DNA of 64,000 bases from NCBI RefSeq assembly GCF_028641065.1, contig NC_073396.1:10416001-10480000 (forward strand). Reading direction: 5' to 3'. The stretch is from Leucoraja erinacea. Lineage: Eukaryota. The translations under genes and the position numbers were made by a program. Position 1 is the stretch's first letter. Every line of letters starts with the position of its first letter. Of this stretch, positions 3,195-55,204 are shown one piece after another. The notes beneath the pieces were generated by a model that had not been told where the DNA came from, searched no databases, and saw only the letters and a list, made by a program, of their open reading frames with translations.

Positions 3195-3235
3195 GTGGAT
3201 TTTCTATATCGCAGATATCTTTGCTTTATATTCTA

Positions 3236-6025: not shown

Positions 6026-6724
6026 ACACAGCTTCCTTCCTCAGGCAATAATACTGGTTAACGGACTGTGTCCCCTCCCCATATATCATACACCAACACA
6101 TCTAACCTCGCCCATACTTTGACAGCTTGGCACCTGTCAAAGCAAAGCCACTGTTCGGTCTGAATGTCTGTTTTTATTTCAATTTTTAGGCCTACTTTAG
6201 AAATGGTAATTTTAATTTTTAAACCTATATGTATTTATTCTGTTTTTATTAACTACACTGACGGGAACTGATTGAGAAACAATTTTTTCGTTTCATCTGT
6301 GTATGTAAGTACTCAGTTAAAATGACATTAAAGTAAATGCTGAATACTGAATATATTGTTAACAGTGTACTATGTTTACATATTCTGTTGTGCTGCTGCA
6401 AGTAAGAATTCCATTGTTCTATCTGGGTCATATGACAATAAAACACTCTTGACACTTATTTGACACTTCTCTTTTTATTTCAAGTACTTTCATGGATTAA
6501 GACTGGGAAAATGTTTTGAAACACAAGGTCAAGACTTTGTCTGTCCTCTAAAATATGAAGGAAGCTAGAATATAGGCCATGACATAGGAGCAGAATTGGG
6601 CCATGAGGCCCTTCAAGTCTGCTCTGCCATTCTATCATGGTTGGTCTATTTATCCTTCCAAACCCCATTCTCCTCTCTTCACCCCGTAACCCTTGACTCC
6701 CTTACTAATCGAGAACCTGTCAAT

Positions 6725-6920
6725 GTGTAGGAAGGAACTGCAGGCGCTGGTTTAAACTGAAGAGAGACACTAAATGCTGGAGTAACTCAGCAGGACAGGT
6801 AGCATCTCTGTAGAGAAGGAATGGGTGACGTTTCAGATCGAGACCCTTCTTTAATCAGTCTGAAGAAGGGTCTCAGGAATATCAGCCATTCCTTCTCTCC
6901 AGAGATGCTGGCGGTCCCGG
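6725..6920. repeat. Palindromic Penelope-pLTR-derived repeat
   Basis: GTAGGAAGGAACTGCAG..GCTGGAGTAACTCAGC..GTGACGTTTC..GAGACCCTTC followed by an inverted partial copy CTGAAGAAGGGTCTC..CCATTCCTTCTCTCCAGAGATGCTG. Confidence 0.75.
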
Positions 6921-7745
6921 TAAGAACCTATCAATGTTTGCTTTAAAAATATCCAAAGACTTGGCCTACACAGCCGTCTGTGGCAATGATTCCACAGATT
7001 CACCACCCTCTGGCTAAAGAAATGCCTCCACTACATCATCTCCATTCTAAAAGGATGTCCTTGTATTCTGAGGCTGTGCACACTACTTGAATCAGCCCCT
7101 CCACATCTACTCTATCTCGGCCTTTCATTACCCAGTAGGTTTCAATGAGATCCTTCTATCCCTCATCCTTCTAAAGTCCAACAAGTACAGGCCTGGAGCA
7201 TAAGTATATTTATTAATCATGTGCAGTTATGCTTTCACACAGGACTGTGTTTGAATGTTATATGAAGATCTTCAGAAATGTAATTCCATCTGAAACCGGA
7301 TCGTTAAATCTGAATAACGCAAGTATGTGGTGATGGAGTTGACCATGGTAGACTGGGAAACTAATTAAAGATCTGGCAAGAAGCAAACAATGGCCAACAT
7401 TTGGTGGGGATACATCACATTACATCGAAACGTCACCCATTCCTTTTCTCTGCCTGTCCCAGCTGAGTTTCTCCAGCATTTTGTGTCTCTCTTCGGTTTA
7501 AACCAACAATTGCAGTTCCTTCCCACACATTACATTTAACATGTTGGGCTGAAGGGCTTATTTCAGTACTGTATGATTCTACAGCCCTTTGAAGCAAAAT
7601 AATTCGCAAAGAAAGGTACTCCAGTCATCTCTATCAAGAGCAGCAAAGGGAAATATAAGATCAAGGAGAGAGAGTTACAAGGTACACAAAAAAGCTGGAG
7701 AAACTCAGCGGATGCAGCAGCATCTATGGAGCGAAGGAAATAGGC

Positions 7746-7773
7746 GACGTTTCGGGCCGAAACCCTTCTTCAG
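7746..7773 (-). ncRNA. Minimal hammerhead ribozyme core (pLTR subfamily B)
   Basis: Minus strand CTGAAGA-A-GGGTT-TC-GGCCC-GAAA-CG-TC. Catalytic core intact; the 5' strand of stem I is lost in this copy. Confidence 0.6.
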
Positions 7774-8304
7774 AGAGAGTTACAATGTTGTCACAAAAAC
7801 CAATAAGCCTGAGGATTCGGAAAATGTCAGTATTAAGCAGGGGAGGATCAAGAGGCTGATAAAGAAAGGGAATCTAGAATGAAAGTGCAATCTAGGAAGA
7901 AATAGGAAAACAGGCGGTGGGAAGCTTCACTAAGATGTAAAAAGGATAAGATTAGCAAAAGTTAATTTGGTTTCTTTATAGGCAGAGACAGGAGAAATAG
8001 AACTGGGAAATAAAGAAATATTATTTATTATTATTATTAACATTATACTTATGGGCGCCTTTCAAAGACTCTCAAGGATGCCTTACAAAATTTAATAAGC
8101 AGATCACAAAACATATAGGCAGAATAAAACAAAAAACAAAAAAAATAGTAGGAACATCAACAATACAAAATTCAAAGAGAGAGCAGAGTTTGTCACATAG
8201 AAAACCTCCCAGAAAATGTGGAAAGCTACAGCTCCAAACTCAAAGAAAATAGCATTATTATGCGGCATTCATATGTGACATAATATGTGGTATTAATATA
8301 AGGC

Positions 8305-10430: not shown

Positions 10431-13400
10431 ATAAGGTCATAAATGATAGGAGTACAATTAGACCAGTCGGCCCATCAAGTCTACTCCGCCATTCAATCAT
10501 GTTCTATGTACTATGTTTTATGTAATCTTGTGTGTAAGTCAGAGTTTGGTGTGGAACTCAATGGGGGTTTAGTGAGGGGAAGCTTGTTTTAAGTTAAATG
10601 CCTTATTAACTTGTTGGGGCAACTGTTTTACAGACGGAGGATAGACACAAAATGCTGGAGTAACTCAGCAGGACAGGCAACATCTCTGGAGAGATAATGT
10701 TTCGGGTCAAGACCATTCCTTAGACTGACTGTTACAGACTGGATACAGACTGGATGAAACTCAATAATGACTGAAAATGTATTACGATGGTTTATTTATC
10801 TGAAATAATTATTTAAATCTCTGAATCATAAGTTCATAAGTTATAGGAACAAAATAAGGCCCAAAATATTCGGCCCATCAGGTCTACTCCACCATTCAAA
10901 CATGGTTGATCTATCTTTCCCTCTCAACACCATTCGCCCCATAGCCCCTGACACCCTGTCCCAATTAAAGGTTCAACAGCATCATTTTTTTCTTCTGGCT
11001 CATACATTTCACTACATCACACAGAGATAAATGTGTATCATTGACTTTCCTTTCCTAAGGTAACATGGTCATACATGGAACCATGTCCCCCGGTGAGAGG
11101 GAAGAACTATATTATCCCCAACAATGTATCTTTGGACAATCATTCCACATCACTGAATGGCTTCTGGCAGTTCAATTGAGCAGGGAGAAACCATTTATTT
11201 TTGTGCGAGTGTTTCTCTTAAGTTTAGTTTCATCTATTGACCTGGGACATTAATGTTTCTGCATCATTTTTGTTGATTTTCTTTCCCCAGAATTTCTTAT
11301 GAGAATGCTTCATTTTGATGTGGAAAATATTTACGTTTCCATTCGAAATGAGGAACCTGTCATTTAGCCCTTTTGAAGGGTCATTTTTCATTAAGTTCGT
11401 GTACGTGAGTTAACTGCATTGCATTGCCTCAATTCTCACCCGAACTCAATCAGCAATATATTGCTGTTAAATTCAACAATAAAAGCTTATTTTAGTGCTA
11501 CCTTATAACAAAACAGGGATGGAGGAATCTTAGCGTATCCATCATTTCACTCAGTAGATTAGATAAAATCAAAACTTCTGTTTATTCTGCTCAAAGAACG
11601 GTCGGAGATTTTCAATCATTTGCTCAATAACACCGACCTTAAACATTTGACCTCTACGGTCTTGTCGTTTTTTTACGCTCATCTGTGAATTCTTCACAGT
11701 GCTAAATTCGAACTGGAAAGGCAAAAGAATACCAGTGAGGGAACTTAAGGCTCACTTGATTCAGTAGCTGAGTTTAGTATATATAAAGAAACATATTAGC
11801 ACAGCTAACCTGGGCAATCCAGTGTTTCCATTCTCAGTAATTAGTAACATAAAACCAACAAGAATAAGTGATTTGATTGCGGCATCATTTGTAATATATA
11901 GGTTTTTCAACTGTAAACTGTGACAAATGTGATATTGTTTCATAAATCTTTATTTTGTGCTTTTATGTGAATGCGGTTTATTAGCTATCCAGTCTGCAAT
12001 CTGTGCCAGATCAATGGAGAAACAGCATCTGCTACAATGGGGAGAGGGTGACATAGATTGAAACAGCTATTTATTTGCTCAGACAGGTATACAAACCACA
12101 CACTCCTACACATTGTCTCATTATCGCAATGAAAAGGCAACGTCAATTCATCCATTCCTTAACCCTTTCTGAATCGATGATAAATTCCCTCGACGCAATT
12201 ACTTGTGTGAAAAATAAGAAATTTTGATGCCTTTTAGGTGCAGGAAACTCACCGTCCTAATAACTCCGGCTGATGAGGAAGTCAGTGAATTGTAACAGTA
12301 GCATATTGCTGAAACAGTTGCTATCAAACTTCCAGTCATGTCCATTACATTTAAATGTGCACTAAGGCTAAAAAGTAATCCAACTTCTGCTGTCAATTCT
12401 CTGCCAAAAACTTTAAACAGTGAAATGAGCTGCTGGAAATATAAATAGGAAGTGGTCAAACTGATTCCATGTGCCACCGCAGATGGTGCAATGGATAATC
12501 GGAAGGAACAAGTTAGGGGCAGATACAATAGTGGTGTTTAAGAGGCTTTCGGATAGGCACATGGAAGTGCAGGGGATAGTTTAGTTAAGTTGAGTTTATT
12601 GTCACATGCACCGAGGTAGCGTGAAAGGCTTTTGCTGCGTGCTAACCAGCCGGCCGAAAGACAATACATGATTGCGATCGAGCCAACCTCAGTATATAGA
12701 TGCATGATATGGGACTAATGTTTAGCTTAAGGCAAACTCCAATCAAAGATAGCCTGAGGGTTAATGTTGAGGTAGATAGTAGCTCAGAACTGCTCTCTGA
12801 TTACGATTGCATGGTTCAGCTGGGGAGAAACTGTCCCTGAATCTGGAGGTGTGCGTTTTTGCACTTCTATACCTTTTGCCTGATGGACTATGGGGCTAGA
12901 GGGATATGGATCATGTGCAGGCAGGTGAGATCAATTTGGCTTGGCATCATGTTCAGCATAAACATCGTGGGCCGAAGGGCCTGACCGGTGCTGTGTTGTT
13001 CTATGTTCCATCTTCTAAGTTGAAGATATGAACTGAAGCCATTTGGTTTGGGTATTTGAAGATTGGTAGCAGGCAGTAGAAATCTCTGCCACAGTGGTGC
13101 AGCGATAGAGCTGCTGCCTCACAATGCCAGTTCGATCCTGTCCGTTTGGAGTTTGCATGTTCTCCCTTTGACCGCGTGGGTTTCCACCGGGTGCTCCGGT
13201 TTCCTCCCACAGGATAAGATAAGCTTACAAGTTTTAAGATAAGCTTACACGTCGGAGTTAGGGAAGCCGATCACAAAATTTACATGCAGCCGTATAGAAA
13301 TCCATTTCGGCCTGACAGGTTTGTACAGTCTCCCAAATGGTTCATCTCCCTTGTTACTTCCCCTCGATTCTCCCCCTCATCCTGCCTGCCATGCTTCCTC

Positions 13401-13856: not shown

Positions 13857-15294
13857 ACACTGTCGTTGCTCCACCAAATGCTGTCCTATGTAGAAATGCG
13901 GTGAGGTACAGGAACAATTAAAATTGCAGCAGCAGCAACACAGCACATACTCAGATAACACACAAAATCAAAAAATATGCATAAATTAAACCTGAACGAC
14001 ACATAAATTCTACAAGACAATGAAAAGAAGAAGACTGCACAAAAATAAGCCATTGGTGTAAAGATACACAATAAAAGAAGTACATAGGCATGCAAGGGAT
14101 GCTCCCTGATGTTTTGTTGCCAAGGTAAGATCAGAGTTGTGCAGGTCAGTTCAAAAACCAGATAGTTGCAGGAAAGTAGCTTTGTAGTGATGGCTTTGAA
14201 CATCTGTTTTTCTTACTGTGAAGATTTGCACTTAATTTTAACCTTTGAGCGCATGAGATGATTTCTCTTCCTCTCTCTGATCGTCTGGTGATCTCAGCGG
14301 TAGGCATGACATTTTCCATCAGGACGACTCCTCATGCCAGGGGACGTGCAGTATTTGTGAGATAAGGCCGTAAGACCATTAGAAAGAGGAGCAGAATTAG
14401 GCCATTCGGCCCATCGATTCTACTCCACCATTCAGTCACGGCTGATCCATTTTTCCCGCTCAATCCCATTCGCCTGCCTTCTCCCCTTAACCTTTGATCA
14501 CTAATAATTTGTGCAACAATGCCTTTGGATTACAGCAGGGAAGGGAAGAACATTTTATATTATAGATTATTTCACCGTGTGTAGGGTGTATCGATGGCAG
14601 GCACAATCCACGGGAGCATCACAGAACATGTGGAGAAGAAAGAGTCCCATTCTTTCCATGTCCTTCTGCCATATTGCCTGTACAAGCGATCTACATGTCA
14701 GCGTGTAACATGCAGGAACTCGGCTCCTCTCTTCCTTTATTGTTGTTGGATTGCTGCTACTTTCTTCACAAAACTGAGTTGAGGTGAGTGGAAAATCTTT
14801 GCTCACAATGGCCTGGACACCCCAGAGCACAATGAGGCAAAATATAGCAGAGACATCTACCAGGTTGGTGAGGTGGGGGAAGGGGGGGGGTCATCAAACT
14901 GTAGAATATGAGTGGCATGGTGGCGCAGCGGTAGAGTGCCAGAGACCTGGGTTCTATCCTCACCACGGGTGCTGTCGGGACGAAGTTTATACGTTTTCCC
15001 TTTGACCGCAAATGTTTTCTCCGGGTGCTCCGGTTTTCGCCCGCACTTCAAAGAGTCACAATCACTCATGGTTGGGGTTAGATTAAACCAGTTGCAGCTC
15101 GCCCTGGGTGTCTGACCATGCCACCATCCCCTTTGTTTCCCTATTGTAAACCCAATTGTCTCTTACACATCGACACAGAAAGCCTTAGTGTAATCTGCAG
15201 AAGACAGTGGAAGGTGCAAATCATTGGACAAAAGAAAGTTCTCCTTCTCGTGGACCAACAGCGAATTAAAGAAGATAGCGTGGGTCTTCATTAT

Positions 15295-15510
15295 GTGGTG
15301 GAGTAACTCAGCGGGTCAGGCAGCCTCTCTGGAGAAAAAGGATGGGTGACGGTTCAGGTTGTGACCCTTCTTCAGATCCGACCGGGATCATCCTTTTTGC
15401 TCGAGAGACGCTGGCTCTGAATTAAGGTCCCGACCGGAAATGTCACCCATCCTCTTTCTCCAGAGATGCTGGCTGACCTGCTGAGTTACTCCAGCACTTT
15501 ATGTCTATCT
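15295..15510. repeat. Palindromic Penelope-pLTR-derived repeat
   Basis: GGAGTAACTCAGCGGGTCAGGCAGC..GGGTGAC.. and inverted GTCACCCATCC..GCTGAGTTACTCC arms. Confidence 0.75.
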
Positions 15511-17361
15511 ATGAATACAATATTTATCAGAGAGGTCCGGAATAATGCGATGTCACTGAACATTCCGTGGGAGTATGGTCATCGCTAATGGAATCTTAGG
15601 CAAAAAACAAAGTGCGGGAGGAACTCAGCAGGTCACGCACCATCTTGCGAAGGGAACGTCGGCAAAGGCTCCCAACCCAAAATGTTGTCTGTCCAACCCA
15701 TCCGCAGATGCTGCCTGACCTACTGAGTTCCTTCAGCACATAACCTGACGAGTTAGACTTTCAAAAGGCCATGAGGTGAAAAGTAATTGGAGCAGAATTA
15801 GACCATTCGGACCATCAAGGCTACTCTGCCATTCAGATTTTCAAGAGAGAGTTAGATTTAGCTCTTAGGGCTAACAGAATCAAGGGATATGGGAAGAAAG
15901 CAGGAACGGGGTACTGATTTTGGATGATCAGCCATGATCATATTGAATGGCGGTGTTGGCTCGAAGGGCTGAAAGGTCTACTCCTGCACCTATTATTTGT
16001 TTCTATTCAATTGTGGCTGATTTATCTCCCCCCCCCCCCCCAACCCCATTCTCCTGCCTTCTTCCCTTAACCTCTGACGCCCGTACTACTCAAGAATCTA
16101 TCTATCTCTGCCGTAAAAATATCGATCAACTTTCAATTGCAACAGAGCTAAAATACTGTAGTTCCAAAGTACCTCAGCTCCACTCCCGACCACATGGAGA
16201 ACTCCGAAAAAAATCATCCCACTCTATGACCTGACTTTGCAGAACTTTTTATTGCAGCTGTTCTGTGATACATTGAAACATTAACTAATCGCAAGGCTTA
16301 TTTTACAGCCTGCAGATGGAGTGCATCTTTACAACTATGTTTCGTGGACTACCATTCATTAACATTTTTATGACATTAACCTTACAATTGTCTTCACACG
16401 GTGATTGAAAAATAAAGCGAGGATAAATTCATCAGATCAATTTTCATTTTTAAAAGCTATTAATTTTTTTTTTAATATCTCCAAACAGGATAGTTTATTT
16501 TTGACCGCACATTGCAAGGTTTTAGTTGAAATTGATTTATGAACAGACATATTTAAAATGTAATGACCTTTAGTCAGAGGCAAGATCCCAGATTCCTGGA
16601 AAGAGTGGGATCAATTCTAATGTTGTATTGGCTTTTTTTAACCTGAACAAAAGCTTAATAACAGTAGGGCCGCAATTTACAAAAACATTACAACCGTATG
16701 GATTTTCATTACCACGACATTGACTTTTCATGGTATGAGTTTTCAATTTACAAATAGGTTTTTTGCTATGAAAATATCACACCACTCTCCACCTATACGA
16801 AAGCTTCTAAGAACTTCTATGCAGGCGGCAGAGCTGGGCCCATCTCTGTTTGTGATTTAGTTCAATGGTTTGATTGAGAATGTACATGGCATGGTTACTA
16901 AGTTTGCAGATGACACTAAAGTAGGTGGCATGGTAGACAATGAGGATGGTTATATAAAATTACAGCAGGCCCTTGATCAGCTGGGCATGTGGGCTGACGA
17001 GTGGGTGATGGAGTTTAATACAGAGAAGTGCTAGGTTGCATTTTGGGATGTCGATCAGGGCAGGGCCTTCACAGTGAATGACAGGGCCCTGGGGAGTATT
17101 GTAAAGCAGAGGGATTTAGTGCAAGCATATAGTTCCTTTAAAGTGGCGTCACAGGTAAATAGGGTGGTAAATAAAGGCTTTGGGTACATTGGCCTTCATC
17201 AGTCAGGGTTATGGAATGTAGAAGTTGGAATGTTATGTTACAGTTGTATGAGACATTGGCGAGGCCACATTTGGAGTACTGTGTTCAGTTTTGGTCAACC
17301 CTGCGACATGAGGAATGCCATTAAGCTGGAACGTGTGGGGCTAGCACTTTATTCCTTGGAG

Positions 17362-18204: not shown

Positions 18205-18527
18205 ACGGCACGGTGGCGCAGCGGTAGAGTTGTTGCCTTACAGTGCTTGCAGTGCCAGAGACCCGGGTTCGATCCTGACTACGGGTGCTTGTCTGTACGG
18301 AGTTTGTACGTTCTCCCCGTGACCTGCGTTGGTTTTCTCCGAGATCTTCGGTTTCCACCCACACTGCAAAGACGTACAGGTTTGTAGGTTAATTGGCTTG
18401 GTATAAGTGTAAAATTGTCCCTAGTGTGTGTAGGATAGTGCTAATGTAAGGAGATCGCTGGTCGGTGCGGACTCGATGGACCGAAGGGCCTGTTTCCGTG
18501 CTGTATCTCTAAACTAAACTAAACTAA
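18205..18527 (+). mobile_element. Full-length HE1-type V-SINE
   Basis: GGCACGGTGGCGCAGCGG A-box, GGTTCGATCC B-box, V-domain, (TAAAC)n tail. Confidence 0.9.
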
Positions 18528-18640
18528 GAATGATAGGTACAAAGTGCTGGAGTAACACTGCGGGTCTGGCAGCTTCTTTGGAGAAAAGTAATATGTGACT
18601 TTTCAGATCAAGACCCTTCCTCGCGCTGGAAGATAGAGAA

Positions 18641-19157: not shown

Positions 19158-20394
19158 CCAGAGAATGATATGTTGGATGCGGAGGACAGCTAGATGAAAG
19201 GGAAGGACAAGAGGAGCTCATTTAATCCAAATGTACCACAGTGTTAAGAATTATTTTAATACACCCTTCAACGCCGTTCAACATCCTTCATTCCCTCTCC
19301 AATGTGGCCATATAAATAAGGACCAAGCCACACAAGTTCTCCCATGTTTCAGTTCTTGATTAGTAAGGGTGTCAGGGGTTATGGGGAGAAGGTAGGAGAT
19401 GAGAGGGGTTGAGAGGGAGAGATAGATCAGCCATGATTGAGTGGTGGCGTAGAATTGATGAGCCGAATGTTCTAAGTCTGCTCCTAGTACTTATGAACTT
19501 TCATATATCTGTACACTGCGAATGGCTCGATTGTAATCATGTATTATTTTTCCACTGCCGAGCAACAAAAGCTTTTAACTGTTCCTCGGTACAAGTGGCA
19601 ATAAACTAACCTAAACTAAACTTATGAAATTTCCCACTGTTAGCAAGAGCAATTGGTAGATTTCATACCATTCATTTCTTTATAAAGCGAGTACCAAGAT
19701 CTGGAATGCATAGGCAGGGGGTGAAGTGGATGAAGACACGTACTGTTCAGATAAGAGCTGGATTAGTATCAGAAAATAAAGAATTTGCAGAGCTCTGGGG
19801 ACAGAGCAAGGGAGTAAGTCTACATGAATTGTTCGTACGTCGAGCTGGTACAGACTCAATGGGCCGAAGGGCCCCTGTCCATGCTGCCACCATGCTGTGA
19901 CTATAATACTCAAACGCTCATTGTGAGAACCAACTTACTTTAATGAAAATGATACTGCCACAAAAGCAAGAACAGAGCAGTTTTGGGTATTTGGATCATT
20001 ATGTCTAATTGGTGATTAGATCCCCTGCAGTCATGACATATGATTCCAGTGAAATATCTGTCTGCAGAGCGTGAGGCAAGATAATGAGACCCACAGCTGC
20101 ACAAGAACTGTGGCGGTGAGTACTGGAGGCATTTTGTGGCTTAGGTACATCTAGTCTGCCCAGACACACAACCCAGGAGATCCCTTAATATGCTTGAAAC
20201 ATCCTGCACAAAGTCAAATCCATAAGAAGAAAAAGTTGCCTAACTAAACTAAACAAAACAATGCGTGATCTTATATAGAGGTGTATGAGATCATGAGAGG
20301 AATAGATCAGGTAGATGCACAGAGTCCCTTGCCCAGAGTGGGTGAGTCGAGGACCAGAGGATATAGGTTTAAGGCAAAATTGGTGATCTATATG

Positions 20395-20577
20395 TGTAAG
20401 AAGGAATTGCAGATGCTGGTTTAAACCGAAGATGGACACGAAAAGCTGGAGTAACTCAGCGGGACAGGCAGCATCTCTGGAGAGAAGGAAGAAGGGTCTC
20501 GACCTGAAACATCACCCATTCTTTCTCTCCAGAGATGCTGCCTGTCCCGCAGAGTTACCCCAGCTTTTTGTGTCTAT
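20395..20577. repeat. Palindromic Penelope-pLTR-derived repeat
   Basis: Inverted arms GCTGGAGTAACTCAGCGGGACAGGCAGCATCTCTGGAGAGAAG / CTTTCTCTCCAGAGATGCTGCCTGTCCCGCAGAGTTACCCCAGC around a degenerate hammerhead core. Confidence 0.8.
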
Positions 20578-21002
20578 TTTCTATTGTAGGTTATCTGGAC
20601 TGAGCAGGAAGATGCAAAGTAGTAAAGACGGATTAAATGGATGTTAAAAGCTGTGGCAATGGAAACTTAAGAGAAAATGAGCAGGAGTAGATCCTGAAAC
20701 CTAAGCCGCCATCCGCTTGGATCATAACTCTATCAACTCCATTTATTCAGCTTGAGTCCATTGTCTTTAGTCCTTATTGGGTGTTGCCCTTATAAACATT
20801 CACAAATATCACTTCTGAAGTTTTCTGGACTTTATCTTGCACTAAACGTTATTCCCTTTATCCTGTATCTGTACACTGTGGATGTTTTAGTTGTAATCAC
20901 CATAAGTCTTTTCGCCATCTGGATAGCAGTTGACAAAAGAAGCTTTTCACTGTACCTTGGCACACGTGACTATAAACTAAACTAAACTAAACTAAACTAA
21001 AC

Positions 21003-21385: not shown

Positions 21386-22684
21386 TAATTTTATAATGCA
21401 TACTAGGAAGTCAAATTCTGGTAGGACGTTCAGAGTAAATATCTGGGACTTGAGGATTATTGACACACTGAGGGACCTTGGGGTGCAGGTCCGCTGGAGT
21501 GATGCCACATGCCTTTGGGGAGATCGAGGTGTTGGTTCTGGAGAGGGAATGGGATGGGATATCAGGCCTAGGACAACTTCCAAAGAGATCCCTTTATTCC
21601 CGTACCTGCTGCGTATGCTACTCTCTCAAAAAATTTGGTTAGATCTGTTCAGTGTGACTTGCCCTTTAACATCTGTTCCCAAGTATCATCGATCACTGCC
21701 TAATAGCAGGTCATTTCCCTGCAACAAACATCACACCAGTACACATATAATTTCCTGTTTTATCTTTCCCATCTGTCTTAATGGAGTTAGACACAAAAAG
21801 CTGGAGTAAATCAGAGGGTCAGGCAGCATCTCTGGAGAAAAGGAATAGGTGATGTTTCTGGTCGAGACCTTTCCTCAGACTGAGAGTCTTGGGAAAGGGA
21901 CAAAGACGGTGATATAGAGAGATAGAAATGAAATGATATACAAAAAGTAACGATAATCAAAGAAACGTGGAGCCCACAAGGGTTGATTGTCTGCTGTGGT
22001 CTAGATGGAGTGATAGTTTACTATTCCAAGGGGATTATACCTGATTCCGTAAATATTTAACGTTGACCTATTAATACAAATTCTGAGCTTTCTCTTGCAC
22101 CCACTCACATTGTACTCTTTGCTATTCTCTGTATTCTCTCCACCACATATTACCGTTATTTTGCCTTTGTATGTGTCCTTTTTTTAATTCAATTACGTCT
22201 TTCATTTCCCGCGCTGACCAAGGTTATTTAATTTTACACAGAATTGCTTTTGTCCCTTTGGAGTAGGCACTTATCTTGTACGTTGCATCCTTGAATTCTA
22301 CCCACCATCCATCCATACTTTTATCTACTCATAATTCTGCCCAATGCACTGGGAACAAATCGGATTTCATCAATCCCAGCACAATTGAAACCTTTTTTCA
22401 AAGAGAGGTAGTGTGACATCATTTGCCTTAGACCACGAAAGAACATTTTCGAAATTGCAAGAAACACGGAACTGAAGGAGCAAAGAATGTGGGAATTCCA
22501 AGGACATATTTCACCAAAGATAGTTAATTAACTTTTGCTGTGAGTCAGTTGGCGGCTAAACTATAACGAGGTCACATTTTGGTTGTTCAGCACCTTGTTC
22601 TGGAATAAACATTATGTTTTGGTCATTGCATCTCAGGGAAGTTACATTGAGCTTGGAGATAGTACAGCACGGGAAATTGGCCAC

Positions 22685-23270
22685 GGTGGGCCACAGTGGG
22701 GTAGCAGAAGAGTTACTGCCTTACATCACTTGCAGCACCGGAGACCCGGGTTCGTTCCAGACCATGGAGTTTGTACGCTCTCCCCGTGACCGCGTGGGTT
22801 TGGGAAGCGCGGTGGCACAGTGTTGCTGCCTTACAAAGCTTGCAGCGCCAGAGACCCGGGTTCGATCCCGACTACGGGTGCTGTCTGTATGGAGTTCGTA
22901 TGTTCTCCCCGTGAGAACCCCGTAGGTTTACTCCGAGATCTTTGGTTTGCACCCACACTAATTGGCTTGGTGTATGTGTAAAGTGTCCCTAGTATGTGTA
23001 GGATGGCGTTCTAGGAGGTTCTAGGAAGCGGGGTGGCATTGATGGTCAAACAAGGACCCTTTCTCAGACTGAGTCTGAAGAAGGGTCCCGACCAGGCTGC
23101 GCAGTGGCACAGCAGTAGAGTTGCTGCCTTATAGCACCAGGGACCCAGGTTCAATCCTGACTACGACTGTTTGTCTGTATGGAGTTTGTACGTAGGATAG
23201 TGTTAGTGTGCGGGGCGCGGTCCCGGTTGGCTGAAGGGTTTGTTTCCACGCTGTATCTCCAAACTAATCT
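22685..23270 (+). mobile_element. Cluster of three partial HE1 SINEs plus a pLTR fragment
   Basis: Repeated SINE heads near 22690, 22810 and 23100. CTGAAGAAGGGTCCCGACC at ~23075. Confidence 0.75.
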
Positions 23271-28531: not shown

Positions 28532-29435
28532 AGAAAGAGAAAAGAGGTGAGCGAAACCTTTTGTTTAAGAAGGAACTGCAGATGCTGGAAAATCGAAGAT
28601 ACACAAAAATTCTGGAGAAACTCAGCGGTTGCAGCAGCATCTATGGAGCGAAGGCAAAGGCAAGTTTCGGGCTGAAACCCTTCTTCAGACCTTTATTGCG
28701 AATTATTATGAGCAAAACCATTATTGGTTAAAAGGATGTGTGTCTTGATGACTCCAGAAAGGTCGTTGAGTTTTTTTCCTGCACTATTAATCAAACATCT
28801 CTGAGGTAGGAATTCCAGAGGTAAAAGCAAATTGGTGGTGGAAACATAGAAACATAGAAAGTAGGTGCAGGTGTAGGCCATTCGGCCCTTCGAACCAGCA
28901 CTGCCATTTAATATGATCACGGCTGATCATCCAGAATAAGTGGACAGAAACTTTGATTCTTTGCTAACAATCCAATCTTATAAATCGAACCTTTATTACA
29001 AGTGCACTTCAATGATTGCCTTACTTTTGCTTTCCCTGCAATAGCAGTTAAATTTCCTTCATGATATGATAGATCTCCCAATTGGAATGATTGGTCGTGA
29101 CGAAAGACGGGAAAGAAACAAATGAATGCCTTCCCATTGAATTTTGTCGTGAAAATAAATGATGCCAAACACATTTGCGTCAATATAATGGGTGAGCAGC
29201 GTGTTAGTTAATGATAACATGACCTCTTCCAAGGACAGTGACAGAATGTTCAAACTGTTAATCACAGCCAGGCATCTCCGAAGGAACAGATGTACTAAAC
29301 TCCACGACGTGGGATCCATTGGCAGTTTTATATTGTCCCCGCAAACAGAATGAGTGGACTTTTCAAGTGCCATCCACTATTCATTTTCGGAGAGTTTGAA
29401 AGTATTCTCGGAGTTTGATGATTAATTCTAACGGC

Positions 29436-32143: not shown

Positions 32144-32658
32144 CATTGGTCATTGAAAGGTGTCCTGATGTAAGAAGAGAGATGGATTTGAAACACCGTG
32201 ACCATATCCACCGTGACTAGACTGGCATGAGCTATTACTTTTACATGGAAGCTCTCATGCACATCAGTATAGAAAGTGGTGATAAAAAAAATGATAATCC
32301 TGCAAGGTTTTAAATCAAGAATTATAGTTACTAATAAAAGATACTCAGACCCAATAATTAATACGACATATTGTTAGCTAGCTTGTAACATTACATTGAA
32401 CACAAGTGCTGGAGTAATTCAGCGGGTCAACCAGCATCACTGGAGGACATTGATAGGTGACGTTTCGAGTTGCGACCCTTCTCCCACCCTGAAACGCCAC
32501 CTATCTATGTCCTCCACAGATGCTGCCCTACCCGCTGTGTTACCCAGCACTCTGTGTTCTCCACAAGATTCCGGTGTCTGCAGTTTCTTGTGTCTACGTG
32601 TGGCATTGTATATTATCTATATGCTACTTTAAAACTGATACTCATCCCTTTCTCTCTA

Positions 32659-32987
32659 ATAGACATAAAATGCTGGAGTAACTCAGCGGGACAGGCAGCA
32701 TCTCTGGAGAGAAGGATTGGGTGACGTTTCAGATGGAGACCTTCAGACTAAATCAGGGGAGAGGGAGATACTGAGATAAGGAAATGTAAGATGTGAAAAG
32801 AAGGCACAGGGAATGGAGATCAAGGAAATGAAGAATAGATCATTGTTAGGTAGGAGAAAGGTAACAACAAAGCAAACAGAGAAAATGTAGACCTGAACAG
32901 TCAGACTAGTCGGAGAACTGGAAAGGGGGGAGGGATGGAGAGATAGGGAAGGCAAAAGTTACTTGAAGTTAGAGAAATCAATATTCA
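32659..32987 (-). mobile_element. Penelope-like element 3' fragment (ORF end, pyrimidine-rich spacer, pseudo-LTR)
   Basis: Minus strand reads ..AAT ATT GAT TTC TCT AAC TTC AAG TAA (NIDFSNFK*), which from memory resembles fish Penelope GIY-YIG ORF termini. This is followed by a C/T-rich tract and the pLTR repeat with a degenerate hammerhead (CTGAAGG..GAAACGTCACC). Confidence 0.65.
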
Positions 32988-33124: not shown

Positions 33125-33945
33125 GGCAATATAAGATCAAGGAAATTCAGCATGTCAACAAATCCTCTTTTGATCTTCTACAGGGTTACAGTAAAGAGAA
33201 CATTGACTGGTTGCATCGCAACCTGGTTCAGCAACTCAAAGGCCCAGGAGGGAAGAGGATTGCAAAATGTTACCAACACTGCTCAGCCCATCACGGGTAC
33301 TGACCTCCACAGCATCAAAGGGATCTGTAAGTAAGTAAGTAAAGTAAGTAGGTAAGTAAGTTTATTGGCCAAGTATTCACATACAAGGAATTTGCCTTGG
33401 TGCTCCGCCCACAAGAAACAACATGACATACAGTGACAGTTATGAATGACTCAGAAAACACTAAACATTAATAATAATAAGGCATCCATGATAAAACACC
33501 ATTGATCAAGCATGTGAACCAACAAAATACCAGATCAAATGGAGGCTTATGCCCCTGTCCCACTTAGGAAACCTGAACGGAAACCTCTGGAGACTTTGTG
33601 CCCCACCCAAGGTTTCCGTCCCGTTCCCGGAGGTTGCAGGTGGTTGCCGGAGGTTGCAGGTAGTGGAAGCAGGTAGTGGTAGGGAGACTGACAAAAACCT
33701 CCGGGAACCACACGGAAACCTTGGGTGGGGCGCAAAGTCTCCAGAGGTTTCCGTTCAGGTTTCCTAAGTGGGACAGGGGCATTAGAGTCACTGCCTTAAA
33801 AGGCAGGCGGCATCATCAGAGACCCACACCGCCCTGGCCATGCTCTGCCATCCAGCCATCGGGAAGAAGGCACAGGAGCCTGAAAACTGTAGTGTTCAGG
33901 TTAAGGAGTAGCTTCTTCCCCACAACCATCAACATATTAAACAAC
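33125..33945 (+). mobile_element. Rex1/Babar-like LINE fragment split by two nested insertions
   Basis: LRKFSMS..FYR..ILTGCIATWF-like coding at 33125-33327 resumes at ~33785 (IIRDP..PSGRRHRSLKT..FFPTTINILN). Confidence 0.75.
33550..33781. mobile_element. PIF/Harbinger-like palindromic MITE (232 bp)
   Basis: 3-bp TSD TTA (33547-33549 / 33782-33784). Near-perfect TIR of about 70 bp starting TGCCCCTGTCCCACTTAGGAAACCTGAACGGAAACC. Confidence 0.9.
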
Positions 33946-37930: not shown

Positions 37931-39357
37931 GATCTAGCTTAGCCTGCACGCTATGTTCTCCTTGTTCTAAAAAGAGAAAGAAACTTTAGGTTACTGATTT
38001 ATAATTGAAATAATTGCAATGCGGCAGAAAATGCAACCCAAATAATTAGCTGCGTGACATAAATGTCCAATAAATGCTGAACACAAGCTTTTATAATTAA
38101 GTGTAAGATCATCATAACTGTTTCCACAATATTTAAAATGATTCCAAAATGATTTGCTACGTAGTAAAAATAAGTCTCCAGAGCTCATTAACTTGCCACT
38201 ATTAGCAGTAAATAGTTAAAACAGGAACATGGTAATGGTATTTCACATTCAAGCATTGGATTGATTTTAAGACGGTTTCAGGTGTAATTCAAAACCAATC
38301 CGTGTAACTGAAGGGAAACTTTTACACATCAAGAATAGTATTCAAAAATGTTATAGGTATAAAAGTGAGATGCTGCATATATTTTCCAGAGATATCACAA
38401 CTTTAAGCATTTAGAATTCAAACAGAATCTTAAAGTAAGCAATTATAAACTGCACTATATGTTAGAAATGGCATCAGATTAAATAATGGGCTTCCAACCC
38501 CATTGTGTAGGAATTTTACTCAATATGTAGGAAGGAACTGCCGATGCTAGTTTAAACTTGAAGAAGGGTCTCGAATCGAAACGTCACCCATTCCTTCTCT
38601 CCAGAGATGCTGCCTGTCCTGCTGAGTTACTCCAGCATTTTGTGTCTTTTACTGATGTCTCTACAGATCCAGCGTTTAGTTTCCACTGACTGCCATGTTT
38701 AGTTTTTAAGTTTAGTTTAGAGATCCAGCGCGGAAACAGGCCCTTCGGCCCACCGAGTCCGTGCCGACCAGCGGACACCCCGTACACCGATTCTATGCTA
38801 AACACTCGAAAATCGAAAAACGCCAGATGCTGGAAACCTGAAATCAAAACGGTAAATGCAGGAAAAACTCAGCAGGTCCATCTGCATCTGTGGAGAGAGA
38901 AATGGTGAACATTATTATAAACTTGCTTGGATTTCGTGAAAAGGTTGCAACGCAGACTGACAATTATTTGAAAGGTAGGACAGAAAATTAGATTACATTG
39001 AAAAGGAAGGGGATTAATTGTTCATTGGCAGGATGTGACAAGTTGTATTTCCCAAATAATTCCCCTGACGAGAGAACCGAGGACATTTAAATTTAGAGTG
39101 ATGATCTCGAAAGGAAATTGGAAAAGACATTGTTTCGTCGTGGTATTGAAAGTCTGAAGCACTCTTCAGGTAAATGCAGGAGAAATAGATATTTTCAAGG
39201 TCAAGACTGACATAATTTTCCAATTTTTTTGTAAATGTTCTCATGACATAGTCAGAGGCAATTCAGCCCATCAAACCCTGCTGGCTTGCAGATCACTCAC
39301 AACTGCCACTTCCTCATGTACATGTATTTCCCTGTAACCACATAACTTCATCTGTTC

Positions 39358-45572: not shown

Positions 45573-45668
45573 CTGAAGAAGGGTCTCGACCCGAAAACGT
45601 CACCCATTCCTTCTCTCCAAAGGTGCTGCCTGCCCCGCTGCGTTACTCCAGCATTTTGTGTCTATCTT
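45573..45668 (+). repeat. Penelope-pLTR repeat with near-intact hammerhead core
   Basis: CTGAAGAAGGGTCTCGACCCGAAAACGTCACCC (one extra A in GAAA). Confidence 0.7.
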
Positions 45669-46294
45669 CTTTAAATATTTTATCATGTGCAGACAGATGA
45701 GATTAGTTCATTTTGGCATCGTGTTTGGCACAGACGTTGTGGGCTGAAGGGCCTGTTAATGAGCTGTGCTGTTCCACGTTCGATGCTCCAAGCTGTCAGA
45801 GGAGAGAGTTGCTGTCACAGTCCAACTGCAGCAAGCGGAAGGAAAACAACAGCTGAGCACCACTGACTGTTCGAAGCATTGTCCTGCTCGCTGCGGATCT
45901 GGCCATAATATTGGACAGTGTGAAGGAGTCCACAGCCCGCGTGCATGGCACAGACTCAGTGCAATTAATCATGCGGCCCAAGATGGCAGCTGCTCACCAG
46001 ACTGAGCAGCGTGATTTTCCCTGGCTTGCCAAGCGTGAAGGAAATAATAGAAACCTGCAAACCACTTCTGTGCCATCTCCACAGGCCCCACACCCTGGGG
46101 TGACCAGAACTGCAAACAATAGATAACAAGTTTATAACAACAGGGCGGCATGGTGACGCAGTGGTAGAGTTGCTGCCTTACAGCGCTTGCTTGCAGCCCC
46201 AGAGATGCAGGTTAAATCCCGACCACGGGTGCTGTCTGTACCTCAGCATCACAACAGTATTCACTAGAGAGGCCTTCGACTAGAGCGTATACAC

Positions 46295-46895: not shown

Positions 46896-47211
46896 CTGCT
46901 TAGCAGTGAGAGAAGCTATAGAAAAGGGGAGTCATACAGAAGGAAATGGCATGAGGTAGAGAACGGAAAAGTGGCAGATTAACTGGAGACAGCAAAAAGA
47001 ACAAGACAATTGCAAATGGAGGGTACACAGAAATGCTGGAGAAACTCAGCGGGTGCAGCAGCATCTATGGAGCAAAGGAAATGGGCAACGTTTCGGGCCG
47101 AAACCCTTCACTCCGTTGAACCCAAAAGATCAGGGGTTGCTCATTAAGGCAGTGAGACGATCGGCTGTTGCTATTTTTTGGTTACTGTCTGACTAGCCTT
47201 TTCCAACTGTT

Positions 47212-47440
47212 TAAGAAAGAACTGCAGATGCTGGAAAAATCGAAGGTAGACAAAAATGCTGGGGAAACTCAGCAGGTGAGGCAGCATCTATGGAGCGAAG
47301 GAATAGGTGACGTTTGGGGTCGAGACTCTTGTTCAGACTGATCTTGAAGAAGGGTCTCGACCCGAAACGTCACCTTTTCCTTTGCCCCATAGATGCTGCC
47401 TCACCCGCTGAGTTTCTCCAGCATTTTTGTCTACCTTCAG
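47212..47440. repeat. Palindromic Penelope-pLTR repeat with two inverted hammerhead-like cores
   Basis: Arms of about 100 bp. Cores at 47308-47338 (-) and 47343-47371 (+; TGAAGAAGGGTCTCGACCCGAAACGTC). Confidence 0.8.
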
Positions 47441-47845: not shown

Positions 47846-50404
47846 GCGTAAAGCCTGAAGTCATCGTGCTATACTGCCTTCATCAGAGTCCTGAATTCTC
47901 TGGAGCAGAACTTACTTCTACTCTGAACTGACAACTGCCTTGCCTGCAGGCCAATTGTTCCTGATAGATGATGCTTTTAAACTACTCTTGACTGTAAATA
48001 AAGTGTCAGTATCTCAGCAGCTGCCAGTGGCTGGTAGGTTGTAGACACAAGTAGCTGCCATTGCGGGGATCTTGACCAAAATGTAAAGGGCAGGAAGGGC
48101 TCAATGGGTCAGGCAGCATCTGTGGAGGGAATGGACAGACAACATTTCAGACTAATGGGGTAGGAGGGAGAATGCTGGAATAGAGGGGTGGGGTGGTGCA
48201 AAAGCTGGCAGATGATAAGGGAAGATGTTTGAAAACCTGGGGAGCAGAAAGAATCACAGGGGGCTGGGGGCAGTGAGAGAGGGCCTCCCAGGACTCCATA
48301 TTCATATGTTATAGTAGTAGAATCATGCCATTTGGCCCATTGTGTCTACTACGTCATTCAATCATGGCTGATCAATCTTTCACCCTCAACCCCATTGTCC
48401 TGCCTTCTCCCCATAACCACTGACACCCGTACTATTCAAGAATCATATCAATCTCCGCCTTGGTAATATCCATAGACTTGTCCTCCACCGCCTTCTGTGG
48501 CAATGAATTCCACACATTCACCACCCTCTGATAAAATAAATTCCTCCTCATCTCCTTGGAGAATCCAGTTGGAGAGAGGAGGAAAACATCTTCAAAGTTG
48601 ACACACTTTAAGGAGATTTTGCTGTAGAGCAGGAAAATAGAGACAATACATATGCTAGAATCTTGAACAGAACACAAAGTGCTGGAGGAACTCACAGGTC
48701 AGGCAGCATCTGTGGAGAGAAATGGCCAGATGGCATGATTGGCTGCTATTTCTTTGTTTCTCTATTGACTCAACAAATCCTGATTAGGGTGTTAATTAGT
48801 TGCTGCTTGAAAGAAAGCACAAGGCACAGGGAAATGTGGAGTTACTGGCAAGATGTCAAAACCAAAACTGTCTTGTAAAAATCAGAAGGGGTTGTGGATT
48901 GAGGGGATGTGAGGGGCAGATACATGAGTCAGTGTTTGCAGAGTTTATTGTTGGATAATAGCTGGATTGCACGGTATGTAGCAGTGTAGGGATAGAACTC
49001 AGAAATGAACTTTGCTCTCCTTGGTCCTATGTAGCATTCAATTAAATATTTTCCTGCTCTTTCCTGCTCCTGGCATTGACCATGTTAGTGATCTTCCGTC
49101 ACATGTGTATATAATGGATCTGAATGATTCTCCAACCCTGAAAGTAGACTCTCTCTCTTCTCCCACAGCATGTCCACCAAGGTGCTCTAAACCTCTCATA
49201 CCCCTCTCTGCCCTGCACCCACATTACAGTTTAGTTTATAGTCACATGTACCGAGGTGCAGTGAAAAGCTTCTGTTGTGTGCTATCCATTCAGCAGAAAG
49301 ACAATACATGATATTACAATCGACCCTTTTACAGGGTATAGATACATGATAAGTCCACTATTCTAAACCTTCTCAACATCTAATGGCAATTAATCAAATG
49401 TCCTTTAAGATATACTGGCATTAACTCAAACTGATCACTCTAGAAATTGCACGCTGCAGGTGCTGGAACTGGACTGTCTGCAGGGGGGATAGCCCTGTTT
49501 GGCGCAGCCACCACCAAGACTCAGTGGGAACAAGCCTAAAGTTTTTGACTCGCCCACCTTGGGCTTACTATGGTCCACTAACACCATAAAAAACCCTTGG
49601 ACTTTTTGGTCACAGAATGTTTAAGAGAAAAAAAAGATGTCTCACTAATATAATGCTAATAGATTAATAGATGGATGTCAGGGGTTATGGGGAGAAGGCA
49701 GGAGAATGGGGTTAGGAGGGAGAGATAGATCAGCCATGATTGAATGGCAGAGTAGACTTGATGGGCCGAATATTCTAATTCTGCTCCTATCACATAAATC
49801 ATGCAATTCTTTCAATATAAATAGCACTGATGAACTTAAAGAACATTTTGAGGGGGATATACTGCTGCGAGACTCTAAAATTGTGATTATGGAGTGAGAG
49901 AAGAAACTTCAGATGATGCCTGTGTCAATTCATATTGATGGAATTAATTAAATATGGCATATCTTTGCACTTTGCAACATCTTCACTATTTTGTGTAGGA
50001 AGGAACTGCAGATGCTGGTTTATACTGACGAGAGACACAAAATGCTGGAGTAACTCAGCGGGTCAGACAGCATCTCTAGAGGAAAGAATCGTTTCGGGTT
50101 GAAACCCTTCTTCCACTATTTTGTACGTGTCGATAACTTGAAAGGTTAGTGTTTAGAATTATTCAATAATATGTTTATCAGAAACATTATACTAAATTTC
50201 ATTGACTTTTCTCTCTCCTAAGGATTTTCTATCTGGCATGATTGATACTACGAGAACATAGAACAGTACAGCATAGGAACAGTGCCTTCAGCTCACAATG
50301 TCTGTGCCAGAAGTGATACCAAGATGCACTAATCTTAAAGAAGATAGACACAAAAGGCTGGAGTAACTCAGCGGGACAGGCAGCACCTCTGGAGAGAAGG
50401 AATG

Positions 50405-50438
50405 GGTGACGTTTCGGGTCGAGACCCTTCTTCAGACC
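50405..50438 (-). ncRNA. Minimal type-I hammerhead ribozyme motif (pLTR subfamily A)
   Basis: Minus strand GGT-CTGAAGA-A-GGGTC-TC-GACCC-GAAA-CG-TC^ACC. Stem I GGU/ACC, stem II 5 bp, palindromic ACGU stem III, GUC cleavage triplet. Confidence 0.7.
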
Positions 50439-51651
50439 TTGCGTTAAACTGATCTGCCTGCACATGATCCATTATTCCTCCATTCCCCTGCAGTATTTTG
50501 TGGCCTTTGAAGTATACATACAGGTACACAATACTAGCCTGCCCTGGAGGCATATGTACTGGGGTGTACGTATCCGAACATTGAATGGTAGGCCTTTCTG
50601 TGGTCTGTGCAGTCACCTGCTGGAATTGTCGCAGCGTTACAGTAAGAAGACAGATAGCAAACCTGCACTTAAGGAGGAAACAAAGCATAAAGTTTATTAT
50701 CAATGGTAATGTATTTTTGCAGTTATTATGCAAAAATGCAGGGTTTATGTTTGTTTCTTTTGGGGATGGATAAATCTTTTACAATCATTCATTCTGTGAT
50801 CTTGTCGGCAACGTTTACAAATAAAATGATACTCGTCAATGTGTTTAAGAAGGAACTGCAGATGCTGGAAAATCGAAGGTACACAAAAGTGCTGGAGAAA
50901 CTCAGCGGGTGCAGCAGCATCTATGGAGCAAAGGAAATAGGGAACGTTTCGGGCCGAAACCTTTCCTACTCACCGATGCAGTTTGGGCTATGTCACATCC
51001 AAACCACATCCAAAATGACAACACTTCTTTACCAGGGCCTCTAAATCTTGGGGTTTTCTGCCATCCTCTCTGTCTGATTACAGATGGGAAGCAAGGACAT
51101 TGTTTTTAGAAGTCAAGAGCAGAATTTCTGGTTCCCTTTCCACGACCATTTCCCCACCCCTTTCTGTTCTCAGAGGTGGTATTGATGGTTAAATCTTTAT
51201 TTTTAAAAAGCACATGCCTCATTTTATCCCCCAGGTTAATCAATGTGTCTTGGTGCCTTCAATTAGTGCATTCGGCTGAATATCGATTGTAAATCAATAA
51301 TTATATACATTTTTTTCAAATTCAGTGATGTGCTAATTATAGGTTATTCATTATTATGTGATGCTTTGAAAGCAAAAAAATACTTATAAGCAAACATACT
51401 TAGCATTATAAGCAAACATAAACAGCATTAATCACTAGTTTGCCGTTTCTGAAAGTACCACTCCCTTGACTGAAACTTTGACTCATACTTTGTTGAGTCT
51501 GCGAAGGGATTTTCTCCGACCAGAGGGGCTTTGTCCTTGGCATCCATTTAGAGTCCTTTCCTCTAATTCTGGCTCAGATCTGAATCTTGGAAGCTTTGTT
51601 TTGCAAGCTCTCCATTCAGATCAGGTATCACTATACACAAATTCAATCAAG

Positions 51652-55014: not shown

Positions 55015-55204
55015 TCCTTTTCACACCTTACCCTTCCATATCCCTAGACTCCCTCTCCCCTGACTCTCAATGTGAAGAAGGGTCTCAACCCGAAACGTCA
55101 CCCATTCCTTCTCTCCAGAGATGCAGCCTGTCCTGCTGAGGTACTCCAGCATTTTGTGTCTATCTTTGATGTATAACCAGTATCTGCAGTTCCTTCCTAC
55201 ACAC
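55015..55204 (+). repeat. Penelope-pLTR repeat with pyrimidine-rich leader
   Basis: CCCCTGACTCTCAATGTGAAGAAGGGTCTCAACCCGAAACGTCACCC..CTGCAGTTCCTTCCTACAC. Confidence 0.75.

What the first reader, a model, noticed from the sequence alone, without database searches (positions are those of the whole stretch)
50405..50438. High-copy minimal hammerhead ribozyme carried by the window's commonest short repeat
Seen: a repeat present in many copies (e.g. 6827/6860, 7746, 10698, 15350, 18597, 20490, 21851, 23075, 28663, 32724, 38559, 45573, 47088, 47343, 50090, 50408, 50943, 55071) contains CTGAAGA-A-[stem]-GAAA-CG-TH. Stem II varies while keeping pairing: GGGTC/GACCC, GGGTT/GGCCC (G-U), GGGTT/AACCC (50090). 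Stem I changes with subfamily: GGT/ACC at 50405 and AAAGGT/GCCTTT at ~28655-28694. Known: CUGANGA..GAAA..UH is the hammerhead core. Minimal type-I hammerheads with a palindromic stem III occur in Penelope-like-element pLTRs and non-LTR retrozymes and need dimerisation to cleave. An extra A after A9 is a tolerated variant. Inference: this genome carries a very large non-autonomous self-cleaving retroelement family in at least two subfamilies (GUC^ACC vs GUU/GUC^GCC). It could cut host pre-mRNAs or form circRNAs.
Basis: partly seen in the sequence, partly recalled or inferred. Interest (0 to 1): 0.8.

Follow-up and report, generated by a model that had tools for sequence, protein, structure and literature searches.

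The report
Penelope retrotransposon stubs with minimal hammerhead
The repeat is the short end piece of a known kind of jumping gene (Penelope-like) carrying an already described minimal self-cutting RNA motif; most copies are broken, they likely do not cut host RNA, and they likely arise when copying runs off the uncut front end of the element's RNA.

Summary
The motif at 50405-50438 is real and lies on the minus strand: a minimal type I hammerhead with 40,789 exact 28-nt copies in the genome. It is not a separate retrozyme. It is the terminal repeat (pLTR) of an endonuclease-bearing Penelope-like element. It follows the RT + GIY-YIG frame in 18 of 19 loci and flanks 3.83-3.85-kb tandem units. 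Window copies are 90-135-nt stubs, often head-to-head; 2 of 32 keep the strict motif. Helix II has 4 bp with one one-sided change. Stubs start just before the hammerhead, not at its cut site, and end at two fixed points about 35 nt apart, as for the anole PLE. Intronic copies show no strand bias (98 sense, 104 antisense), so cutting of host RNA is unsupported. Cleavage itself was not testable. The scan has reported this family before, in this genome and others. Verdict: new member of a known kind, low interest. A telomere-joined second PLE family was noticed in passing.

The parts
50408..50435 (-). Minimal hammerhead core: CUGAAGA (50435-50429), extra A (50428), helix II 4 bp + CUCG loop (50427-50416), GAAA, palindromic ACGU, predicted cut after C at 50408
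50405..50438 (-).
50338..50437 (-). Focal stub: PLE terminal repeat from its front edge to the first fixed end (about +95 from C3); no target duplication found
7679..7774 (-). Stub of the young UUCG-loop subfamily; the only other strict-intact hammerhead in the window; 14-nt target duplication
45573..45671 (+). Stub with core plus one inserted A in GAAA; 12-nt target duplication
28561..28690 (-). Long-tail stub of the UUCG subfamily; G of the ACGU palindrome deleted
21785..21881 (-). Stub, core bases kept, helix II and palindrome decayed
47208..47440 (.). Head-to-head pair of stubs (94-nt arms, 91% complementary); neither core intact
6724..6929 (.). Head-to-head pair; neither core intact
15292..15513 (.). 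Head-to-head pair, 33 nt between arms; neither core intact
20393..20585 (.). Head-to-head pair, both arms 5'-clipped
32397..32589 (.). Older head-to-head pair, both arms 5'-clipped
49991..50115 (-).
50840..50968 (-).
55073..55204 (+). Long-tail copy, C3 changed; continues upstream into the pyrimidine-rich pLTR
47014..47109 (-). 5'-clipped stub of the UUCG subfamily
38527..38647 (+). Stub with short inverted tail piece in front; C3 lost
10634..10726 (-). Decayed stub
18526..18622 (-). Decayed stub
32659..32749 (-). Stub with 4-nt deletion in the core
23073..23093 (+). Front fragment only (CUGAAGA + helix II), interrupted
7426..7526 (+). Stub starting at GAAA (5' half of the hammerhead missing)

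Best explanation
The repeat is the hammerhead-bearing terminal repeat of an endonuclease-containing Penelope-like retrotransposon, and the short copies are likely dead by-products made when the element's own enzyme copies the uncut front 90-135 nt of its RNA into a nicked target. Shown: link to the RT + GIY-YIG frame, tandem pLTR-ORF-pLTR units, target duplications, two fixed 3' ends about 35 nt apart, a sharp 5' edge 2-3 nt before the hammerhead, head-to-head pairs, and decay of most cores. Inferred: (1) the RNA begins at the TCAGTCT just before the hammerhead (it fits the initiator consensus, recalled); (2) reverse transcription starts inside the RNA at about +93 or +130, as measured for the anole PLE, and runs off the 5' end, giving a stub; longer copies arise when the template is the 3' repeat of a tandem or read-through RNA; (3) head-to-head pairs arise when both nicked strands are primed and the two cDNAs join by short homologies; (4) the hammerhead is kept in the master elements and would cut only as a dimer or with the element's protein, while scattered single or fold-back copies in host transcripts are mostly inert.
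For: Hammerhead about 100-120 nt after the stop of the RT + GIY-YIG frame in 18 of 19 RT-selected loci and in 15 of 20 loci chosen for long frames. Units with a hammerhead at both ends 3,832 and 3,847 nt apart (L141, L150); the next frame starts about 170 nt after C3. Pfam RVT_1 E 3e-6 and GIY-YIG E 0.01 in a 1,193-aa frame (both under the curated cut-offs). DKG, YIDD, CxxxxCxxC and Cys between GIY and YIG read from the translation, as listed for canonical PLEs in bioRxiv 2021.04.23.441226. The focal (ACCCAUU) subfamily also follows a frame end, about 180-210 nt upstream (L080, L124, L167). In an unselected sample, 145 of 206 single copies have no upstream element sequence and 20 of 206 have a frame remnant within 700 nt. 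Of 247 single copies, 145 reach -1 to -3 or further and 35 start at 0 to +4; only 9 start at +25 to +31, against 7 and 9 in the flanking bins. 18 of 30 young front-edge loci have an adjacent 8-18-nt target duplication; their 3' ends fall at +90-97 (11) or +118-131 (7) (read by eye). PMC11167929 reports two internal RT start sites, cleavage of both strands, protein-assisted hammerhead cleavage, and insertion from uncut RNA. Intronic orientation 98 sense to 104 antisense; core-intact 28 to 20.
Against: The RNA start was not measured. An extra G (a possible cap trace) alone at the junction occurs in only 2 of 18 resolved loci. The G excess in pattern listings (33 G to 18 T at -3) vanishes when GG rows are dropped (11 of 27), and some GG rows are template jumps. 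Starts at the cut site may be slightly above background: 638 pattern hits at +28 against 168 at +24, of which about 8 of 30 and 4-5 of 30 are plain stubs by eye; the patterns are not matched in length or subfamily coverage. No full-length element of the focal subfamily was fetched; the intact ones belong to the UUCG subfamily. The core is invariant among four subfamily majorities (0 of 11 positions, against 14 of 64 in the tail) but this is not significant (p = 0.11). The orientation test covers three inferred genes and only 48 core-intact copies (95% CI for sense 0.43-0.72).
Confidence: 0.8

Rival explanations
1. The stubs form their own SINE- or retrozyme-like family: short units are transcribed, self-cleave, circularise and are re-copied in trans.
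For: About 70% of single copies are bare stubs with a sharp start (145 of 206). Very high number (462 arms in 1,064 kb; roughly 950,000 by extrapolation). A 2026 preprint derives animal retrozymes from PLE pLTRs (10.64898/2026.07.22.740005).
Against: Stub sequence tracks the subfamilies of frame-linked elements and runs on into them. Copies do not start at the cut site. No head-to-tail arrays: 20 same-strand neighbours of 106 close pairs, none with two intact motifs by eye. Flanks differ and carry individual target duplications.
Confidence: 0.1
2. The sharp front edge marks a 3' splice site rather than the RNA start: a pyrimidine tract and CAG lie directly before the hammerhead, as in D. virilis Penelope, where the intron ends at helix I.
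For: Pyrimidine-rich tract, branch-like CTRAY and CAG|T before the motif in several subfamilies; a GT at the frame's stop codon. D. virilis precedent (PMC4209133; PMC2377424).
Against: Resolved stubs share no upstream exon and many keep the G or AG of the supposed acceptor. Only 5 genomic matches to a spliced junction pattern, about what chance allows by my estimate. No such joint among the RNA joints shown (147 not shown). The branch-like motif is only 4-8 nt from the AG, too close for vertebrate splicing (recalled).
Confidence: 0.12
3. Scattered intact copies cut host pre-mRNAs (by pairing in trans or with help from the element's protein) often enough to matter.
For: 37 of 462 copies keep core, helix II and palindrome. 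The stub region is abundant in RNA of a related species on both strands. A small excess of starts at +28 is not excluded.
Against: No depletion of sense copies in introns, and intact ones lean sense (28 to 20). 2-bp helix I. The predicted fold of the focal copy is not the hammerhead (z 0.47). Monomeric minimal hammerheads showed no cleavage and dimers little (PMC4209133). No pile of read ends at the cut site (weak, the libraries do not capture such ends).
Confidence: 0.08

Closest known systems
[quoted passage not shown]
   Same: CUGANGA/GAAA/UH core, extra base between 9 and 10.1, G10.1-C11.1 pair, palindromic 15.2-16.2, position in both pLTRs, most copies solo or on opposite strands nearby.
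   Different: Helix II is 4 bp and helix I 2 bp (the paper gives 7-8 and 4-5 bp for Schistosoma, 2 bp helix I for D. virilis). Copy number is far higher: 40,789 exact copies against about 4,000 in coelacanth and 9,000 in Xenopus. Little covariation.
EN+ Penelope-like elements of the Neptune/Nematis type (bioRxiv 2021.04.23.441226)
   Same: One frame with RT and C-terminal GIY-YIG; DKG; CX2-5CxxC linker; Cys between GIY and YIG; partial tandems; adjacent inverted 5'-truncated copies; 30-40-nt tail.
   Different: Long Pro-rich N-terminal part (frame about 1,200 aa by inspection). Clade not placed by a tree. An extreme excess of 90-135-nt stubs with one sharp start.
Poseidon element of Anolis carolinensis, PAc (Frangieh et al. 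2024, PMC11167929)
   Same: Hammerhead at the pLTR-frame junction; genomic ends at two internal sites that define the tail; no sign that cut RNA is the template.
   Different: PAc is Penelope/Poseidon (no Zn linker) and its frame starts in helix II; here the long frame starts about 170 nt after C3.
Non-LTR retrozymes of animals (PMC7229834 listing; bioRxiv 10.64898/2026.07.22.740005)
   Same: Type I hammerhead, related to PLE pLTRs.
   Different: Retrozymes are non-coding tandem arrays with a complete hammerhead in each unit; these copies are single or inverted and continuous with a coding element.

Membership tests
min-HHR of PLE pLTRs | CUGANGA, GAAA and UH core around helix II | tested here: met
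   Intact at 50435 and 7773; 68 hits in 1,064 kb vs 0-1 shuffled; invariant in four subfamily majorities
min-HHR of PLE pLTRs | Extra nucleotide between A9 and 10.1; G10.1-C11.1 pair | tested here: met
   66 of 68 hits have the extra base, A in 59; G-C in the subfamily majorities except one decayed cluster
min-HHR of PLE pLTRs | Palindromic 15.2-16.2 (no loop 3) | tested here: met
   CG in 35 of 68; CA or TG (CpG decay, inferred) in 31
min-HHR of PLE pLTRs | Helix I of 4-5 bp | tested here: not met
   2 bp element-encoded; a 2-bp helix I is described for D. virilis
min-HHR of PLE pLTRs | Compensatory changes in the helices across families | tested here: inconclusive
   One one-sided change in helix II and one in helix I among subfamilies; no two-sided change; families are closely related
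min-HHR of PLE pLTRs | Self-cleavage (dimer or protein-assisted) | not testable with these tools
   Needs an in vitro assay; RNA runs laid cannot show such ends
EN+ Penelope-like element (Neptune/Nematis type) | Single frame with RT and C-terminal GIY-YIG | tested here: met
   1,193-aa and 1,085-aa open frames with RVT_1 and GIY-YIG hits, both under Pfam cut-offs; YIDD in the translation
EN+ Penelope-like element (Neptune/Nematis type) | DKG motif, CX2-5CxxC linker, cysteines between GIY and YIG | tested here: met
   Read from translations of L143 and L144 against the definitions
EN+ Penelope-like element (Neptune/Nematis type) | Partial tandems forming pLTRs with a hammerhead; adjacent inverted copy; 30-40-nt tail | tested here: met
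   L141 and L150 tandems; antisense copies upstream in L140, L144, L148, L154-L156; two 3' end clusters
EN+ Penelope-like element (Neptune/Nematis type) | Clade placement by RT phylogeny | not tested
   No named reference PLE proteins were fetched
Non-LTR retrozyme | Tandem array with a complete hammerhead in at least two consecutive units | tested here: not met
   20 same-strand neighbours among 462 copies, none with two intact motifs by eye
Non-LTR retrozyme | Non-coding unit independent of an autonomous element's body | tested here: not met
   Continuous with the PLE frame on both sides
Non-LTR retrozyme | Abundant circular RNA | not testable with these tools
   A circle closed at the cut site leaves no visible joint; no RNase R data

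The most novel reading that the evidence does not exclude
The roughly one million stubs are a genomic record of the Penelope reaction in a vertebrate: run-off cDNAs from the element's capped RNA start to two internal priming sites, joined head-to-head when both target strands are primed, with at most a few percent made from hammerhead-cut RNA. That would map the start site, the priming sites and the in vivo cleavage rate from DNA alone.
Probability: 0.4. Interest if true: 0.45.

Novelty: new member of a known kind. Interest (0 to 1): 0.2.

Why it matters
As a ribozyme finding it is ordinary: minimal hammerheads in Penelope pLTRs were described in 2014. What it adds is scale (tens of thousands of exact motifs, roughly a million arms) and young, open-frame elements (97-99% alike in the best pairs) that would allow a second vertebrate PLE to be tested in vitro. 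The open question it touches is what the PLE hammerhead is for. Here the junctions say that uncut RNA is the main template, and the lack of strand bias says that host genes tolerate the motif.

Tried and rejected
Rfam scan: no hammerhead family, only sub-threshold hairpin matches. Pfam on 113 window frames of 85 aa or more found only transposon domains and no host exon, so whether the focal copy lies in a gene is open. Single-strand folds of six stretches: z from -1.2 to 1.4, none giving the hammerhead fold; a dimer fold was uninformative. Cap-derived G at the 5' junction: 12 of 22 in the local sample (p 0.014) but 16 of 52 (p 0.88) in a genome listing after dropping 48 rows with G at -4; inconclusive. 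My guess that the GG-junction class is all inverted arms was wrong: 1 of 10 was a plain inverted arm, 3 were template jumps, and others had target duplications with extra Gs. Spliced-copy search: 5 matches. Sequencing-run search: no RNA holder listed on record. Three raw RNA runs of a related species showed deep, two-way coverage of the stub region, little over the 5' part of the frame, and no pile of ends at the cut site; weak evidence. PDB search gave only weak R2/L1 RT hits, in a part of L147 probably not belonging to the PLE. Literature: 'hammerhead + ribozyme + elasmobranch' gave 0 papers; 'Penelope + skate + repeat' and 'Penelope-like/chondrichthyan/Neptune' listings showed none on this family. 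Repbase, Dfam and the supplements of PMC4209133 were not seen and may already hold it. Lower divergence of core than tail per copy (5.8% vs 9.4% non-CpG) was not taken as selection on copies, because unresolved subfamily variation inflates the tail figure.

Full report
Observation. On the minus strand, 50435 to 50408 reads CUGAAGA, an extra A, a 4-bp helix II with a CUCG loop, GAAA, CG and UC; the predicted cut falls before ACC at 50407-50405. A structure descriptor finds 68 such motifs in 1,064 kb of this genome against 0, 0 and 1 in shuffles. The exact 28-nt pattern occurs 40,789 times in the 2.19-Gb genome, with 0 for the reversed control. An HMM finds 32 copies in the window and 462 in the 1,064 kb, which extrapolates to roughly 950,000 arms (rough, since 800 kb were chosen inside genes). 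All 19 listed positions are copies, but only 2 of 32 fit the strict motif and 5 keep the core bases. Rfam does not recognise it. The host is a vertebrate (TTAGGG telomeric repeats), probably a cartilaginous fish; that label is recalled, not from a call.

Corrections to the anatomy. Helix II is 4 bp with a tetraloop. Among subfamily majorities it differs only by U-A versus U.G and by the loop (CUCG, UUCG, CCCG); there is no two-sided change. Long copies have AGU before the core, which pairs 2 bp with ACC or GCC. The core is unchanged in four subfamily majorities (0 of 11 positions, tail 14 of 64; p 0.11).

What it belongs to. Among the first 30 exact-core loci, several carried the end of a GIY-YIG frame just upstream. 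Searches with that frame and with its RT part gave many long frames. The hammerhead followed the stop codon by about 100-120 nt in 18 of 19 RT-selected loci and in 15 of 20 loci chosen for long frames. L141 and L150 have a hammerhead at both ends, 3,832 and 3,847 nt apart, and the long frame begins about 170 nt after C3. The protein has DKG, YIDD, a CxxxxCxxC linker and cysteines between GIY and YIG, the marks given for Neptune/Nematis-type PLEs in bioRxiv 2021.04.23.441226 (passages). The focal subfamily also follows a frame end, about 180-210 nt upstream, though no full-length copy of it was fetched. In an unselected sample 145 of 206 single copies have no upstream element sequence, 61 extend into the pLTR, and 20 have a frame remnant within 700 nt (a few may belong to neighbouring insertions).

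How the stubs likely form. Of 247 single copies with a tail, 145 match back to -1 to -3 or beyond and 35 start at 0 to +4; only 9 start at +25 to +31 around the cut site, like the neighbouring bins (7 and 9). In 30 young front-edge loci, 18 have an adjacent 8-18-nt target duplication, and their 3' ends fall at +90-97 (11) or +118-131 (7) (by eye). For the anole PLE, PMC11167929 (main text, parts 1-2 of 4) shows two internal RT start sites that define the tail, cleavage and extension of both strands, protein-assisted hammerhead cleavage, and insertion from uncut RNA. I infer the same here: priming at +93 or +130 and run-off at an RNA start at the initiator-like TCAGTCT. An internal promoter in the pLTR is reported for D. 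virilis Penelope (PMC2377424, passages). Of 106 close pairs, 80 are head-to-head, 20 same-strand and 6 tail-to-tail; 9 of the 30 pairs with both fronts present join through the self-complementary TCAG-N-CTGA. This fits two cDNAs primed on opposite strands. Against: the start site is not measured and the cap-G signal is inconclusive. A small excess of starts at the cut site is not excluded (638 pattern hits at +28, 168 at +24, 3,208 at the front; unmatched patterns).

Does it cut host RNA? In 800 kb lying between same-strand Sushi exons on three contigs (gene extent inferred), single copies are 98 sense and 104 antisense, and core-intact singles 28 and 20 (CIs). There is no sign of purging of sense copies, though the intact set is small. 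PMC4209133 (parts 1-2 of 4: results and discussion) found no monomer cleavage and little dimer cleavage. Head-to-head copies would bury the motif in a long hairpin (inference). RNA from a related species covers the stub region deeply in both directions, mostly as part of other transcripts, with no pile of ends at the cut site; those libraries cannot settle it. Whether the focal copy lies in a host gene is open.

Comparison and verdict. It works like, and is a member of, the PLE pLTR minimal hammerheads, with a shorter helix I than most. It fails the tandem-array and non-coding tests for non-LTR retrozymes (bioRxiv 10.64898/2026.07.22.740005; part 1 of 5 and passages). No paper on this family turned up (listings only); repeat databases and the 2014 supplements were not seen. 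Earlier scan notes reached the same identity and pointed to the fixed ends. I had the PLE reading before that look-up and tested the fixed ends afterwards. New member of a known kind; interest 0.2.

Noticed in passing
L039 (G000:C23:1-4040), L040 (end of C37), L041 (end of C39); also L043, L044: A second PLE family (759-aa RT + GIY-YIG frame, about 28% identical to the hammerhead family). Three copies sit at contig ends, 5' end outward, with the 3' end joined to (CCCTAA)n-type repeats (degenerate in L040): the orientation expected if cDNA is primed on the G-rich telomere strand, yet with an intact endonuclease. Copies are 96-100% alike; two internal copies end at the same point with 1-3 telomere-like units. 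A simple search found no hammerhead core in L039 or L041. A paper search and the scan's notes showed nothing on it; deserves its own look.
   Followed up: partly
L141:8181-8297 and equivalents: Between the frame's stop and the hammerhead lies a pyrimidine tract ending in a branch-like CTRAY and CAG, with a donor-like GT at the stop codon in several subfamilies; no spliced genomic copies found.
   Followed up: partly
L239, L240, L244, L251, L254, L276: Short duplications of the element's first 8-12 nt in front of stubs, joined at GTCT or AGT homology: likely template jumps after the enzyme reaches the RNA's 5' end.
   Followed up: no
L291, L294, L299, L305: Longer copies that run from the upstream pyrimidine tract straight to +24, lacking the hammerhead's 5' half; possibly hairpin skipping by the reverse transcriptase.
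   Followed up: no
window 25498-27984, minus strand: LTR-retrotransposon pol remnant: RT, RNase H and integrase domains.
   Followed up: no
window 959-3232, minus strand: Frameshifted LINE remnant: RVT_1 and zf-RVT.
   Followed up: no
window 33546-33785; similar end near 5090: MITE-like fold-back with 90-nt arms, 94% complementary; a related end interrupts a stub pair at 5057-5329.
   Followed up: no
G000:C4:74153444-74249968: Sushi exon hits repeat with identical scores about 71-76 kb apart: a recent segmental duplication or an assembly duplicate.
   Followed up: no
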